From a virus (lineage: Duplodnaviria > Heunggongvirae > Uroviricota > Caudoviricetes): a stretch of 4,166 nt of DNA. Where the stretch lies: the IMG/VR virus record IMGVR_UViG_3300003337_000016, one strand, 5' to 3'. The notes below the pieces were generated by a model, which had not been told where the DNA came from, did not search any database, and saw only the letters and a list, made by a program, of their open reading frames with translations. The position numbers and the translations under genes were made by a program. Positions 1,329-4,166 of this stretch are shown piece by piece (the stretch's first letter is position 1; every line of letters begins with the position of its first letter).

Positions 1329-1526
1329 TCAGGTAGCTGTTCCGCGTGATTCCGCAATACGCTGATTAATCCACTCGTCAATTTCACTCTCAACGAAAGC
1401 AATAGCTCGTGAGCCAATTTTAACTGATGCAGGAAATTTACCTTGCCCCATAAGGCGATAAATCCATGCCTTGCTATATCCAGTTCTACGCTGAACTTCT
1501 GTTAAACGAATAAGCGTATTTGACAT
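1329..1526 (-). CDS. alpA: AlpA-family transcriptional regulator / excisionase-like helix-turn-helix protein (65 aa)
   Basis: ATG at 1526 preceded by GAGGT with 6-nt spacing. The sequence LTEVQRRTGYSKAWIYRLMGQGKFP...ESEIDEWINQR has the AlpA/Vis-type HTH and the characteristic EIDEWxxQR C-terminal motif. Small size and position next to a P4-type integrase are typical for this family. Confidence 0.8.
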   Translation of the reverse strand: MSNTLIRLTEVQRRTGYSKAWIYRLMGQGKFPASVKIGSRAIAFVESEIDEWINQRIAESRGTAT

Positions 1527-1595
1527 ATATTTACCTCATAACGTCTACTCAATTTGACGAGGTAATCATGGCACAGAAATAACGAATATTTTCAT

Positions 1596-1738
1596 ACCCT
1601 CAGGCCTAATGGTTACCGGAAGGAAATTAACCCTAAGGGTGATGGTAATCGGGAGGAAATCTACCCTAAGGGTGATGGTAAAATTGACGGGGAAGATAAA
1701 AAAATACCCTCAGGGTAACAGTAAATCACCCTCAGGGT
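1596..1738. promoter_or_regulatory. Array of five palindromic sites with core ACCCT-N-AGGGT; candidate operator or activator-binding array upstream of alpA
   Basis: Cores at 1596-1606 (ACCCTCAGGcc, partial), 1630-1640 and 1663-1673 (ACCCTAAGGGT, each inside a 27-bp direct repeat aggaaatNNACCCTAAGGGTGATGGTAA), and 1706-1716 and 1728-1738 (ACCCTCAGGGT). Centre-to-centre spacings are 34, 33, 43 and 22 bp, close to whole helical turns. The array lies between the cargo gene stop (1754) and the alpA start (1526). Confidence 0.5.
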
Positions 1739-1753
1739 ATGCGGTATGGTGCG

Positions 1754-2551
1754 TTAATCCGGCTTTGCGTTCTTTTGGCTGTTGTCTCGGTTAATAGGGC
1801 AGGCAGTCCTCTCTATGAGCGTTGCAAGTGCATTACTTGCCCCCCACTGCTTAAGCTCCCTGGTTATCGCTTCTTGATTTCCCCTGGTGGCAAAATCATT
1901 TTCTGGATCGTAATTGGCCCACTCTCTGTTTCTAATCTCAATAGCCTTAGCTAATGGGTCTTTATCCCAGTATTTATATAAGTGTATCGGGCGCTCTTGC
2001 TCTAACTGCTCTATCCTTGCCCTTAACTCTGCGTTTTCTTTTTCCAGCATTGCGATTTGGGATAATAAATCATCCTCTGTACGCAACTCTTTCTTTTCAA
2101 TATCGCGTCCTTGTGCCTCGTCATTTTCAGAAGAGTTAGCGCCTTCCAGCTTCGTTAACGCGTCAAGGACATCGGGAAAAATTGCGAAAATTTCACCCCT
2201 TATAAATCCAATGTTCTCAAATTCGGGATCTTCCCAATAACCGGACACCAGAAAACCATTTTCATCCCTCTCACCAGGTAAACAACCACGTTTCCGAACC
2301 GCATTCAGATTTCTATAAAGAACATCATAATCAAATTCATCCCGATACGGGTTACAAAAAGATTCCAACAGCTTAAATTCATTTACTGTGTACAGGCGGA
2401 TATGTTCTCCGCTTATTCTCCTGAGTATCCAAGTTATGACATCTGAAACATCATAATCATCACCAGCGACCTTAAGCACGACCTCAAGAAATTCACGTAA
2501 AGAAATAAAATCTTTTTTGTATTCGTTTAATTCGGCATGAATATCAATCAT
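1754..2551 (-). CDS. Hypothetical protein, unrecognised family (265 aa); low-GC cargo gene between int and alpA
   Basis: The ORF track begins at GTG (2557), but ATG at 2551 is preceded by GAGGT with 6-nt spacing, so I call the start at 2551 (MIDIHAELNEYKK...). An 800-nt open frame in roughly 40% GC DNA is strongly non-random. The protein is acidic and hydrophilic with no obvious membrane segment, and has a central heptad-like coiled-coil stretch (LLSQIAMLEKENAELRARIEQLEQER). No catalytic motif I can assign. Confidence 0.78.
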   Translation of the reverse strand: MIDIHAELNEYKKDFISLREFLEVVLKVAGDDYDVSDVITWILRRISGEHIRLYTVNEFKLLESFCNPYRDEFDYDVLYRNLNAVRKRGCLPGERDENGFLVSGYWEDPEFENIGFIRGEIFAIFPDVLDALTKLEGANSSENDEAQGRDIEKKELRTEDDLLSQIAMLEKENAELRARIEQLEQERPIHLYKYWDKDPLAKAIEIRNREWANYDPENDFATRGNQEAITRELKQWGASNALATLIERTACPINRDNSQKNAKPD

Positions 2552-2679
2552 ACGCACACCTCAGCGTCCTCTACTGTAGTGGCTGTACCAGTCCGTCGAG
2601 GTGTACGGATTTTCGGGAGCGACCCTAGACACAGCCTTTTCTTTCGTCGCTCAAAGTCTACTACTGTATACGCAACCAG

Positions 2680-3894
2680 TCATCCACATTTTCCGAACTT
2701 GCCATGCACCACGTTACCGCCATGTTCGAGCGAATCCATATAGTCAGCGTACCACTGGAGCATCTCCCGGCGACCATCCAGATATTGCGCATGGTTGTAT
2801 GTGCCACGAATTGAGTTTTTATCGACGTGTGCGAGCTGCGTCTCTATCCACGCGGTGTTATAGCCCTGCTCATGCAAAATGGTGCTCATGGTGTGCCGGA
2901 ATCCATGACCAGTAACGCGCCCGGCATAGCCGATACGACGAATGAGCACATTCATCGCCATTTCACTCATTGGCTTACTGTGGTGAATACGACCGGGGAA
3001 AATAAACTGATACTGGCCTGTCATGTTTTTTAACTGCTCCAGTATTTTTATCGCCTGTTCTGGTAATGGCACACAATGCGGACGGCGCATCTTCATTCGC
3101 TCTTTAGGCACTTCCCACAAACGATTATCAAAATCGATCTCCTGCCATTCTGCCTGCCGTAATTCCCCGGGTCTGACACCTGTCAGAATTAATAGCCGCA
3201 TTGCCAGTTTGACGATCTGGCTTCCGGTGTACGTATTAAAAACGCGGAAAAATTCCGGCAGTTCGTCGGCCTTCAAATAGGCGTAATGCTCTTTTTTATG
3301 TGGAGCAAATGCGCTCACCAGGTCAGGGGCTGGATTATATTCGGCGCGTCCGGTGATGATTGCGTACCGGAACACCTCGCCGCATCGCTGGCGAACCTTA
3401 CGCAATTTTTCAGTCGCACCACGGTCATTAAGACGGGAAAGAACCGCCAGCAATTCCATCGGCTTAATTTCTGCGATCGGCCTACCACCAATGTACGGAA
3501 AAACATCTTTTTCAAACGTCTCGATCATTTCCTCGGCGTATGACGATGACCACCTGTCGATCCGCTTTTCGTACCATTCGCGAGCAATACCCTCAAAAGT
3601 ATTGCCAAATTTGCTCGCCTGTTCTCGCTTTTGGGCTTTTCTGGCCTCACTTGGATTTATACCACCAGCAAGAAGCCTTTTAGCCTCATCCCTTGCCGCC
3701 CTGGCATCAGACAGAGACACATCAGGGTACACACCCAATGACAACATTTTGGGCTTTCCTGCAAACCTGTAGCGCAGTCGCCACCCTTTCGAACCGTTCG
3801 GCTCAATGAGCAACGAAAGCCCGTTACCGTCATTGAGTGTATAAGCCTTTTCTTTCGGCTTCGCGCGCCTGATGGCAAGGTCTGAAAGCAGCAT
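2680..3894 (-). CDS. int: Tyrosine recombinase, P4-type phage integrase family (404 aa from the preferred start)
   Basis: The N-terminus (LSDLAIRRAKPKEKAYTLNDGNGLSLLIEPNGSKGWRLRYRF...LGVYPDVSLSDARAARDEAKRLL) is the typical P4-type integrase arm-binding domain. The C-terminal catalytic signatures are present: TGVRPGELR (box I Arg), HGFRHT (His-x-x-Arg) and RGTYNHAQY (catalytic Tyr region). The longest ORF starts at 3933 with no Shine-Dalgarno; the in-frame ATG at 3894 is preceded by GGAG with 8-nt spacing and is the more likely start. Stop is TGA at 2680-2682. Confidence 0.9.
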   Translation of the reverse strand: MLLSDLAIRRAKPKEKAYTLNDGNGLSLLIEPNGSKGWRLRYRFAGKPKMLSLGVYPDVSLSDARAARDEAKRLLAGGINPSEARKAQKREQASKFGNTFEGIAREWYEKRIDRWSSSYAEEMIETFEKDVFPYIGGRPIAEIKPMELLAVLSRLNDRGATEKLRKVRQRCGEVFRYAIITGRAEYNPAPDLVSAFAPHKKEHYAYLKADELPEFFRVFNTYTGSQIVKLAMRLLILTGVRPGELRQAEWQEIDFDNRLWEVPKERMKMRRPHCVPLPEQAIKILEQLKNMTGQYQFIFPGRIHHSKPMSEMAMNVLIRRIGYAGRVTGHGFRHTMSTILHEQGYNTAWIETQLAHVDKNSIRGTYNHAQYLDGRREMLQWYADYMDSLEHGGNVVHGKFGKCG

Positions 3895-4166
3895 GTGTAT
3901 AGCTCCAAAAAATAAATTTTGTCCTATACGCATTACTATACACTTCTGTGTGTAGATTCTGGTAGTTGTGAGTAGACGTTAATAAACTATGTAAATGGCT
4001 GGAAGGTTTGATATTCGTGGGTTTGATGGACTTTAGTAGACGTTGAGAAATGTTTGTTTGGAGCGGGCGAAGGGAACAATACAACAAGCCAAAAGGCCAG
4101 TAATAAAGGCGAATTCGCGAGTTCTAAAATAAATTCTATACACATTTCTATACACATTTATCACTC
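3895..4166. promoter_or_regulatory. Repeat-rich region upstream of int; candidate int promoter/operator and attachment-arm binding sites
   Basis: Motif CTATACRC on the plus strand at 3924-3931, 3936-3943, 4136-4143 and 4148-4155, with an inverted copy (GTGTATAG) at 3895-3902 abutting the int start codon. AGTAGACGTT occurs twice (3971-3980, 4035-4044) and GGTTTGAT twice (4005-4012, 4020-4027). A perfect 10-bp palindrome GCGAATTCGC is at 4109-4118. On the int-sense strand a TATAGT -10-like hexamer lies about 41 nt upstream of the ATG. No tRNA-like sequence is present. Confidence 0.4.
4134..4157 (+). repeat. Perfect tandem direct repeat, 2 x 12 bp (TTCTATACACAT)
   Basis: Positions 4134-4145 and 4146-4157 are identical and contain the CTATACAC motif also found next to the int start. 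Confidence 0.85.

What the first reader, a model, noticed from the sequence alone, without database searches (positions are those of the whole stretch)
1596..1738. Five helically phased palindromic sites (ACCCT-N-AGGGT) between the cargo gene and alpA
Five copies of an 11-bp dyad-symmetric core are spaced at 34, 33, 43 and 22 bp, near-integral helical turns, so all would lie on one face of the DNA. Two subtypes exist: ACCCTAAGGGT, embedded in a 27-bp direct repeat, and ACCCTCAGGGT. This is the signature of cooperative binding by a dimeric DNA-binding protein. The array lies immediately upstream of alpA, the presumed master activator of the island, and immediately downstream of the cargo gene. 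It could be the operator through which the island senses a helper phage or autoregulates, or a set of decoy sites that titrate a phage regulator. I do not recognise it as a known operator.
Basis: seen in the sequence. Interest (0 to 1): 0.6.

Follow-up and report, generated by a model that had tools for sequence, protein, structure and literature searches.

The report
Phased palindrome operator array before alpA
A row of short palindromic DNA sites in front of the master-switch gene (alpA) of an E. coli phage-satellite island is real and conserved, but it travels with the supposed "cargo" gene next to it rather than with alpA, which points to that uncharacterised protein as the factor that binds the sites.

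Summary
There are four exact ACCCTNAGGGT sites and one degenerate site at the stated coordinates, spaced 34/33/43/22 bp. In relatives only the 11-bp cores survive while the spacers have diverged. Core-to-core distances cluster at multiples of about 10.8 bp, so this is a DNA-level, one-face protein-binding array.

The interpretation needs correcting in three places.

- **The "fifth site".** It is the right arm of a separate 16-bp inverted repeat. That repeat sits a fixed 17 nt from the last core and abuts a -10-like box, TATGAAAAT.
- **AlpA.** It is not the specificity determinant. Identical AlpA proteins sit behind this array, behind a different array, or behind none. There is no exact site in 488 kb of alpA loci that lack the neighbouring gene.
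- **The "cargo" gene.** It belongs to an uncharacterised family with a variable N-terminus, a coiled coil and a conserved C-terminal domain. It lay directly upstream of alpA in nearly every locus examined, and the array co-occurs with it.

A second family in the same slot carries its own array of ACTTCCA direct repeats.

My best reading, which is inferred and not shown, is that the array is the operator of the upstream-encoded protein and controls the alpA promoter. I found no sign of phage mimicry or decoy sites.

The parts
1728..1738 (.). Core site 5 (distal), ACCCTCAGGGT. It starts 15 nt after the stop codon of the upstream gene.
   Evidence: Exact match. A site 5-15 nt after the stop codon recurs in many relatives, though it is at about 40-80 nt in some lineages.
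1706..1716 (.). Core site 4, ACCCTCAGGGT, followed on the minus strand by a run of seven T.
   Evidence: Exact match. A lax scan flags it as terminator-like, but the T run is not conserved in diverged relatives.
1663..1673 (.). Core site 3, ACCCTAAGGGT, inside the 33-bp tandem unit.
1630..1640 (.). Core site 2, ACCCTAAGGGT, inside the 33-bp tandem unit. It is the promoter-proximal 11-bp core.
   Evidence: It lies a fixed 17 nt from the proximal inverted repeat in 45 of 55 related upstream regions.
1609..1681 (.). 33-bp tandem repeat, 2.2 units. The unit number is polymorphic between strains (1 to 3 full units).
   Evidence: TRF. Alignment of the 201-, 234- and 267-bp variants. Array types.
1597..1612 (-). 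Proximal 16-bp inverted repeat, CCATTAGGCCTGAGGG. It is a hybrid of two perfect allelic forms found in relatives: CCCTCA-N4-TGAGGG and CCATTA-N4-TAATGG.
1588..1596 (-). -10-like box TATGAAAAT (overlapping TATGAA and GAAAAT), directly abutting the proximal repeat. This is the putative alpA promoter. There is no recognisable -35.
   Evidence: The box is conserved at this position in family-A relatives (TATGAAAAT, TATGATAAT). The consensus scan finds no full sigma-70 promoter. The start site is not mapped, so this part is inference.
1531..1565 (-). alpA 5' leader hairpin that pairs the Shine-Dalgarno GAGG (1537-1534) with an upstream CCTC.
   Evidence: It appears in the RNA minimum-free-energy fold. 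The CTCGTAA...TTACGAG block is conserved in alpA loci with and without the array.
1329..1526 (-). alpA (65 aa).
   Evidence: Pfam Phage_AlpA, 2.4e-19.
1754..2557 (-). It has a winged-helix-like N-terminal domain, a coiled coil and a conserved C-terminal domain (...DPL..AIEIRN.EW..YD...TRGNQ.AI..EL...G....A..IE..ACPI.R). It is the proposed cognate binder of the array.
   Evidence: No Pfam, PHROG, PADLOC or NCBIfam family. Family alignment. Structure models. Co-occurrence with the array.

Best explanation

Proposed steps, all inferred:
1. The protein dimerises or oligomerises through its coiled coil.
2. It recognises ACCC(T)N(A)GGGT through its conserved C-terminal module.
3. It binds cooperatively along one face of the helix, from its own stop codon down to the core alpA promoter.
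4. Together with the proximal 16-bp inverted repeat that abuts the -10-like box, the complex sets the activity of the alpA promoter. Most likely it keeps the promoter shut, and shielded from read-through from int and the upstream gene, while the island is quiescent.
5. The variable N-terminal part would be the input domain.

What is shown:
- The sites are real, conserved and phased.
- The promoter-proximal geometry is fixed.
- The array is tied to this gene family and not to AlpA, the integrase or downstream genes.
- A second gene family in the same slot has its own array.

What is inferred: who binds, that the C-terminal domain does the binding, and whether the effect is repression or activation.
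For: 1. **Selection falls on the cores only.** In islands whose AlpA is 74-85% identical and whose upstream protein is 34-62% identical, the spacers are unalignable, yet 2-5 ACCCTNAGGGT cores persist and the central base varies freely.

2. **Phasing.** The 43 spacings from 18 lineages fall at 21-24, 29-34, 42-44, 54-55, 67 and 76 bp. R is 0.80 at 10.7-10.8 bp, reached by 0 of 5000 random sets.

3. **Fixed geometry at the promoter.** The order is: last core, 17 nt, 16-bp inverted repeat, TATGAAAAT. This holds in 45 of 55 upstream regions.

4. **Co-occurrence with the gene.**
   - Of 80 loci picked by AlpA alone, 7 of the 9 with the C-terminal domain upstream have sites. Of the 71 without it, one has a single one-mismatch site.
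   - There are 0 exact sites in 488 kb of the loci without the domain.
   - Among loci picked by the domain alone, 35 of 42 distinct viral loci and 30 of 35 distinct metagenomic loci have at least 2 sites within about 200 nt (mostly 150 nt) after the stop codon.
   - Remote family members keep the motif (L258, L261) or a variant, ACCC-N3-GGGT (L260).
   - L052 has the gene plus the array without an adjacent alpA.

5. **AlpA is excluded as the determinant.** The AlpA proteins of L095 (this array), L097 (other array) and L094 (none) are identical.

6. **Parallel case.** All 12 loci of a second slot family, with a different conserved C-terminal domain, carry 3-7 (usually 5-7) same-orientation A(C/T)TTC(C/T)A repeats from the stop codon to the alpA promoter. 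The mean count of CTTCCA elsewhere is 0.015.

7. **Protein features.** There is a predicted coiled coil at residues 159-186, and the N-terminal domain has winged-helix topology.
Against: - No binding experiment exists.
- No Pfam domain is found in 68 diverse family members.
- The helix that looks most like a recognition helix varies (SNALATL, TSRQAAS, SNVQSKA) while the DNA motif stays the same.
- Some family members lack the motif: the Pasteurellaceae type, L256 and L259. The Photorhabdus type has only a half-conserved variant.
- The gene and the array are physically adjacent, so part of the co-occurrence could be linkage.
- Half-site centres only 6 bp apart are unusually close for a classical HTH dimer.
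- alpA promoters in islands without this gene are still helper-inducible (PMC6092414, PMC11773190). The protein therefore cannot be the general induction mechanism.
Confidence: 0.45

Rival explanations
1. The architecture is the same, a phased one-face DNA operator at the alpA promoter, but the binder is something other than the upstream gene product. It could be a helper-phage regulator that switches alpA on, or a host protein. The upstream gene would then co-occur only because gene and array are adapted to the same helper, or are inherited as one block.
For: alpA promoters of related islands are switched on by helper-phage induction through an unidentified phage factor (PMC6092414; PMC11773190). 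Neither model of the upstream protein shows a recognisable DNA-binding fold. The gene and the array are adjacent, so linkage is possible.
Against: - No paired sites occur in 50,697 phage genomes, and lambda has none.
- The paired motif in IMG/VR is found in alpA islands, or as repeats with no alpA homologue nearby. The four of those I read were plain tandem repeats, and L052 is a family-A gene with the array in a prophage-like region.
- The association with the C-terminal domain survives to remote relatives and across different integrases, AlpA alleles and downstream genes.
- L052 keeps the gene plus the array in a convergent intergenic region with no alpA promoter to activate.
- A second slot family has its own distinct array behind identical AlpA.
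Confidence: 0.25
2. The element acts at the RNA level. The cores would form small hairpins in the 3' untranslated region of the upstream gene. These would terminate or stabilise its transcript and insulate alpA from read-through.
For: - Two cores pass a lax terminator scan (TACCCTGAGGGTA followed by T7).
- The 234-nt RNA folds better than shuffles (z = -3.15).
- Other gene families in this slot have ordinary hairpin-plus-T terminators at this position (L074, L102, L071, L151, EcCIMP1).
- The proximal inverted repeat shows compensatory arm changes between lineages.
Against: - An 11-nt palindrome can form at most a 4-bp stem with a 3-nt loop.
- The T tract is not conserved in relatives.
- Spacings that are multiples of 10.8 bp have no meaning for RNA.
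- T5 and A7 would lie in the loop, yet they are conserved as a complementary pair.
- The good fold score is expected from any set of mutually complementary palindromes.
- The parallel family-B array is made of direct repeats that cannot form hairpins.
- The abundant E. coli form has a broken proximal repeat.
Confidence: 0.1
3. The sites are AlpA's own autoregulatory operator.
For: AlpA positively autoregulates in EcCICFT073 and EcCIMP1. Relatives of the excisionase/AlpA family are known, from general knowledge, to bind several phased sites.
Against: - Identical AlpA proteins are found with this array, with a different array, and with none.
- No alignment column separates the AlpA proteins that sit behind the array from the rest.
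- There are 0 exact sites in 488 kb of alpA loci without the upstream gene family, including the whole of EcCIMP1.
- There are no further sites elsewhere in the island where AlpA-activated promoters should lie.
Confidence: 0.05
4. The array is a recently expanded tandem repeat with no function.
For: The 33-bp unit is 85-88% identical between copies, and its copy number varies between strains.
Against: The cores and their phasing persist where the rest of the unit has diverged beyond alignment and no tandem structure remains.
Confidence: 0.02

Closest known systems
Cooperative operator arrays of temperate-phage and satellite regulators, such as lambda CI at OR/OL and the SaPI master repressor Stl at the str/xis promoters (general knowledge; Stl in PMC9638917)
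   Same: Several dyad-symmetric sites are phased on one face of the helix. The proximal one overlaps the core promoter of the gene that starts the lytic or induction programme. The regulator is modular, with a variable part that could sense the helper.
   Different: - The half-site centres are only 6 bp apart, in an 11-bp palindrome.
- The candidate regulator is co-oriented with its target and lies upstream of it. It is not divergent from it.
- The conserved module is C-terminal and has no recognisable HTH family.
- Binding has not been shown.
The alpA promoters of E. coli PICIs EcCICFT073 and EcCIMP1 (PMC6092414, PMC11773190)
   Same: The gene, its position after int, and the island type are the same. 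AlpA is 81% identical to that of EcCIMP1. Those promoters are helper-inducible and positively autoregulated.
   Different: EcCIMP1 has neither the upstream gene nor any ACCCTNAGGGT site in its 427-bp int-alpA spacer. No operator has been defined in either paper.
MqsA-type short palindromes, 5'-ACCT(N)2-4AGGT (recalled from memory, not tested here)
   Same: A very short palindrome with a tiny spacer, repeated in a promoter and bound by a dimeric helix-turn-helix protein. This shows that such compact sites can be protein operators.
   Different: The sequence, protein family and copy number differ. There is no toxin-antitoxin context here.
Phased multi-site binding by small excisionase-type regulators, such as P2 Cox, 186 Apl and P4 Vis (general knowledge)
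   Same: These are arrays of short sites at roughly one-turn multiples near int and regulatory genes of P2/P4-type elements. AlpA belongs to the same broad family as Vis.
   Different: Those sites are direct repeats bound by the small protein itself. Here the sites are palindromes, and AlpA is excluded as the determinant.
Rfam int-alpA RNA motif (RF02996)
   Same: It is a conserved non-coding element of the same int-to-alpA interval and is present in this window.
   Different: It lies at 2568-2635 on the minus strand, between int and the upstream gene, not in the array. It occurs in loci with either type of array.

Membership tests
Phased operator array of a symmetric DNA-binding regulator | Dyad-symmetric sites that are conserved while the spacers are not | tested here: met
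   Only the cores are conserved across islands whose spacers are unalignable. The central base is free to vary.
Phased operator array of a symmetric DNA-binding regulator | Site spacing at integral helical turns | tested here: met
   R is 0.80 at 10.7-10.8 bp over 43 spacings from 18 lineages, reached by 0 of 5000 random sets. The lineages are related, so the count of independent events is smaller than 43.
Phased operator array of a symmetric DNA-binding regulator | A site overlapping or abutting the regulated core promoter | tested here: inconclusive
   The proximal inverted repeat abuts a conserved -10-like box at a fixed distance. However, no full sigma-70 consensus is found and the start site is not mapped.
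Phased operator array of a symmetric DNA-binding regulator | Demonstrated binding by a cognate protein | not testable with these tools
   There is only co-occurrence with the upstream gene family.
AlpA autoregulatory operator | Sites follow the AlpA allele and occur wherever that AlpA occurs | tested here: not met
   Identical AlpA is found with and without the array. There are 0 exact sites in 488 kb of alpA loci lacking the upstream gene.
Intrinsic (Rho-independent) terminator | A stable G+C-rich stem followed by a conserved U tract | tested here: not met
   Two cores pass a lax scan with 5-bp stems. The U tract is absent in diverged relatives.
Dispersed intergenic repeat (REP/BIME/ERIC-like) | Many copies scattered over the host chromosome | tested here: not met
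   There is one place per genome in 148 of 5426 E. coli genomes. No other copy occurs in 32 kb around the island.
Type III toxin-antitoxin RNA repeat array (ToxI-like) | Whole tandem units conserved, and adjacent to a toxin endoribonuclease gene | tested here: not met
   Only the 11-bp cores are conserved. Spacers and spacing classes differ between lineages. No ToxN-like gene is present, and PADLOC finds nothing.
Replication-origin iterons | Lie next to the island's initiator or helicase genes | tested here: not met
   The RepA-family helicase and its neighbours lie 3.3 kb or more from the array in the whole island. The array is confined to the interval upstream of alpA.
Rfam int-alpA RNA (RF02996) | Match to the covariance model | tested here: not met
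   The only Rfam match in the window is at 2568-2635 on the minus strand, outside the array.

The most novel reading that the evidence does not exclude
The slot between int and alpA in these satellites is usually read as a cargo or defence hotspot. In many islands it may instead hold modular sensor-regulators. Each would have a swappable N-terminal input domain, a coiled coil and a conserved C-terminal DNA-binding module. Each C-terminal family would be matched to its own operator array at the alpA promoter: ACCCTNAGGGT palindromes for one family and ACTTCCA direct repeats for another. These proteins would be the missing island-encoded gatekeepers that couple helper-phage infection to alpA induction in Gram-negative phage-inducible islands.
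Probability: 0.25. Interest if true: 0.75.

Novelty: new variant of a known kind. Interest (0 to 1): 0.58.

Why it matters
How Gram-negative phage-inducible islands keep alpA silent, and how a helper phage switches it on, is an acknowledged open question. No repressor and no operator have been defined (PMC6092414, PMC11773190).

This array, its cognate-looking partner gene and the parallel ACTTCCA array of a second gene family give concrete cis elements and candidate trans factors. They can be tested directly with gel shifts and reporters.

The work also warns that genes filed as "cargo" in the int-alpA hotspot may be part of the island's own control circuit. That would change how defence-hotspot surveys of satellites should be read.

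Tried and rejected
- **Family searches on the upstream protein.** A sequence-profile search of the PDB found nothing significant. Pfam, PHROGs, PADLOC and NCBIfam gave no family for it or for 68 diverse relatives.
- **P. aeruginosa AlpA antiterminator as a model.** I rejected it. That AlpA is a much larger, Q-like protein. It recognises GGGACG between -35 and -10 and loads onto RNA polymerase (PMC9371919, PMC7969949). It shares only the name with this 65-aa Phage_AlpA protein.
- **Tai defence systems.** These sit in a different hotspot, next to pri, so they are not relevant.
- **Helper-phage search.** There is no array and no gene homologue in GenBank phages. Lambda has no site. I did not scan other individual phages because the helper of this island is unknown.
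- **Literature search for the four motif variants.** Only eukaryotic primer or oligonucleotide coincidences turned up.
- **Covariation between C-terminal-domain residues and motif variants.** I saw no clean pattern. Sub-lineages show degenerate right half-sites (ACCCTSATRGT, CTATCAGGGTA), but I could not tie these to specific residues.
- **E. coli K-12 CP4-57.** There yfjH is on the opposite strand from alpA, so the layout differs and is not comparable.
- **Restriction site.** The motif contains CCTNAGG, which I recall as the Bsu36I/Eco81I recognition site. I did not test this.

Full report
**Layout**

Every gene in the window is on the minus strand. In order they are:

| Feature | Coordinates | Note |
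|---|---|---|
| P4-type tyrosine integrase | 2680-3933 | |
| Array | 1596-1738 | |
| alpA | 1329-1526 | Pfam Phage_AlpA, 2.4e-19 |
| AntA-domain protein | 451-1251 | |

In E. coli genomes the same block opens an island of about 15 kb at tRNA-Gly or tRNA-Thr. The island carries Icd-like, RepA-helicase, ProQ/FinO and PerC genes. It is a satellite of the AlpA type, akin to published E. coli phage-inducible chromosomal islands.

**The observation**

Four are exact and one (1596-1606) has two mismatches. Five matches at up to 2 mismatches were reached in 1 of 200 shuffles. Four exact matches in 109 bp are far beyond chance.

The two ACCCTAAGGGT copies sit in a 33-bp tandem unit: 2.2 copies, 87% matches. 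Strains differ by whole units, giving intergenic regions of 201, 234 or 267 bp.

**Conservation**

I collected relatives in four independent ways:
- by DNA similarity in E. coli;
- by the paired motif in IMG/VR;
- by AlpA protein in one genome per species;
- by the C-terminal domain of the upstream protein in IMG/VR and in metagenomes.

In islands whose AlpA is only 74-85% identical and whose upstream protein is 34-62% identical, the sequence between the cores cannot be aligned. Even so, 2-5 ACCCTNAGGGT cores remain, and the central base is free to be A, C, G or T.

The distances between neighbouring cores fall into classes of 21-24, 29-34, 42-44, 54-55, 67 and 76 bp. Over 43 spacings from 18 lineages the resultant length is 0.80 at a period of 10.7-10.8 bp. 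None of 5000 random sets reached that value. The lineages share ancestry, so the number of independent events is smaller than 43. Keeping the spacing classes while the spacer sequence is lost is itself a constraint.

This pattern fits protein binding to one face of duplex DNA. It has no meaning for an RNA element.

**The promoter-proximal end**

Aligning the regions upstream of alpA on the start codon shows a fixed order: last 11-bp core, 17 nt, a 16-bp inverted repeat, TATGAAAAT or TATGATAAT, about 60 nt, ATG. The 17-nt gap holds in 45 of 55 regions, and it is 16 nt in five more.

The inverted repeat has two perfect allelic forms, CCCTCA-N4-TGAGGG and CCATTA-N4-TAATGG. The window carries a hybrid, CCATTAGGCCTGAGGG (1612-1597, minus strand).

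TATGAAAAT (1596-1588) is the best candidate for the -10 element. There is no recognisable -35, and a consensus scan finds no full promoter. The start site is therefore inferred. If it is right, the inverted repeat occupies the spacer and -35 region, and the cores are centred near -54, -87, -130 and -152.

**Who binds: not AlpA**

- The AlpA proteins of L095 (this array), L097 (a different array) and L094 (no array) are identical. No alignment column separates AlpA proteins with the array from those without it.
- In 72 alpA loci that lack the upstream gene family, 488 kb in total and including the whole of EcCIMP1, there is no exact site. About 0.5 would be expected by chance.
- EcCIMP1 has an AlpA 81% identical to this one, and its alpA promoter fragment responds to the helper phage and to AlpA. 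Its int-alpA spacer has no such site.
- The island around the window has no further copies where AlpA-activated promoters should be.

**Who binds: the neighbour is the best candidate**

The "cargo" gene is not a free-standing passenger. Its family has a variable N-terminal part, a coiled coil and a conserved C-terminal domain of about 70 aa that ends in ...IE.VACPI(K/N)R.

- *Loci chosen by AlpA alone (80 loci).* Seven of the nine with this domain upstream have sites. Of the 71 without it, one has a single one-mismatch site 351 nt away.
- *Loci chosen by the domain alone.* At least 2 sites lie within about 200 nt (mostly 150 nt) after the stop codon in 35 of 42 distinct viral loci and 30 of 35 distinct metagenomic loci. 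In many lineages the first site is only 5-15 nt after the stop.
- *Family size.* A profile search of 1.84 billion representative proteins finds 205 clusters. In all 150 listed hits the domain lies at or near the C-terminus, apart from two atypical ones. None of 68 diverse members has a Pfam domain.
- *Remote members.* Four of the five I looked up again sit directly upstream of a Phage_AlpA gene. The fifth contig (L258) ends 22 codons into the next gene, so that gene could not be identified. Two of the five keep the motif (L258, L261) and one has the variant ACCC-N3-GGGT (L260). L256 and L259 have lost it, as has the Pasteurellaceae type (L151, L152).
- *One exception.* L052 has a family member followed by the array in a convergent intergenic region with no adjacent alpA.

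**A parallel case**

A second protein family occupies the same slot. It has a different conserved C-terminal domain (W.EFAGK.TAL..IAGMA.ALEK..GKY.RGGK.NKSAI...). In all 12 loci seen it is followed by 3-7 (usually 5-7) same-orientation A(C/T)TTC(C/T)A repeats running from its stop codon to the alpA promoter. CTTCCA is essentially absent from the other loci, with a mean count of 0.015.

Other families in the slot have ordinary hairpin-plus-T terminators instead.

So the type of array follows the type of C-terminal domain, behind interchangeable AlpA proteins. This is the main reason I assign the array to the upstream protein.

**Limits of that assignment**

- Nothing shows binding.
- The most HTH-like helix varies while the motif does not.
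- The gene and the array are adjacent, so linkage contributes to the co-occurrence.
- Islands without this gene still induce alpA with a helper. At most this is one of several control solutions.

I put the regulator-operator reading at 0.45. The same operator bound by a phage or host factor gets 0.25, an RNA or terminator role 0.10, AlpA autoregulation 0.05 and a functionless repeat 0.02.

**Phage mimicry or decoy**

I found no support for this idea.
- There is no array and no homologue of the gene in 50,697 GenBank phage records.
- Lambda has only a one-mismatch site, at chance level.
- In IMG/VR the paired motif outside alpA islands lies in contigs with no alpA homologue nearby. The four of those I read were plain tandem repeats, and L052 is the one family-A exception.

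**RNA level**

- Rfam finds only the int-alpA RNA motif, at 2568-2635 on the minus strand, upstream of the "cargo" gene and outside the array.
- The intergenic RNA folds better than shuffles (z = -3.15). This comes from pairing between the mutually complementary palindromes and from the leader hairpin.
- Two cores look like weak terminators, but the T tract is not conserved.

**Comparison with what is known**

The element works like a cooperative operator array of a temperate-element regulator. It is not a member of any described operator family. It is not in Rfam and not in the searchable literature. Its candidate binder belongs to an unannotated protein family.

I rate it a new variant of a known kind. 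Its interest lies in making the control of alpA in Gram-negative satellites directly testable.

Noticed in passing
window 2568-2635 (minus strand): A match to the Rfam int-alpA RNA motif (RF02996, 45.5 bits against a gathering score of 35.8). It lies between the integrase stop codon and the start of the upstream ("cargo") gene. The same motif sits at that position in relatives with either type of array (L004, L025, L027, L095, L072, L097, L098).
   Followed up: partly
L025 1794-2162; also L040, L041, L095, L097, L159, L163, L171, L216, L221, L222: In many relatives the slot gene is split in two. The first ORF is about 105-150 aa (counted from the first Met) and starts like the window protein (MLDIAE.LKAR..EFISLREL...). 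In most lineages it ends in PMDFDDDIPF, with IDFDDDIPF and LNFDDDIPF in two. These look like the C-terminal tail of bacterial SSB, the tail that recruits replication and repair proteins (identified from memory). The fused E. coli version in the window lacks this tail.
   Followed up: partly
window 1531-1565 (minus strand): The alpA leader can form a hairpin (TTACCTCGT ... ATGAGGTAA) that sequesters the Shine-Dalgarno GAGG. The equivalent block, CTCGTAAACCGCAATAGACGTTACGAGG, is conserved in alpA loci with this array, with the other array and with none. This suggests translational control of alpA.
   Followed up: partly
L072 about 3310-3450; also L077, L078, L088, L097, L098, L101, L107, L108, L117, L135, L137: A second protein family in the int-alpA slot is followed by 3-7 (usually 5-7) same-orientation A(C/T)TTC(C/T)A repeats. 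They run from its stop codon to the alpA promoter and end in a conserved ACTTCCACA about 60 nt before the ATG.
   Followed up: partly
window 1597-1612 and relatives (L027, L173, L025, L095): The proximal 16-bp inverted repeat exists in two perfect forms, CCCTCA-N4-TGAGGG and CCATTA-N4-TAATGG. They differ by compensatory changes in both arms. The commonest E. coli form, which is the one in this window, is a hybrid with mismatched arms.
   Followed up: partly
window 4077-4166, 4134-4159 and about 3940-3955: The window matches E. coli islands only up to 4076, inside a copy of the tRNA-Gly 3' end (TGGAGCGGGCGAAGGGAA). No complete tRNA is present. Beyond that point lies unrelated sequence with a 12-bp tandem repeat, TTCTATACACAT, in 2.2 copies. 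A similar CTATACAC lies just upstream of the integrase start. These could be integrase arm-type sites or the junction with a second element in tandem.
   Followed up: no
L025 4857-5084, L072 5098-5326, L098 5593-5820, L095 5843-6028, L070 16600-16827: Relatives carry isrK and C4 antisense RNA genes, with a1/b1 target sequences in L072, 1.5-2.5 kb downstream of alpA and near Icd-like or Ash-family genes. This is a P1/P4-style RNA immunity module. The window ends before this region.
   Followed up: no
L052 5476-6330: This is the only locus found where a family member plus the array (ACCCTCAGGGT twice, plus two degenerate copies) is not followed by alpA. The locus is prophage-like. The gene follows a Cro/CI-type gene and faces a convergent XRE-type gene. 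Its N-terminus resembles an AlpA/excisionase-type helix-turn-helix.
   Followed up: partly
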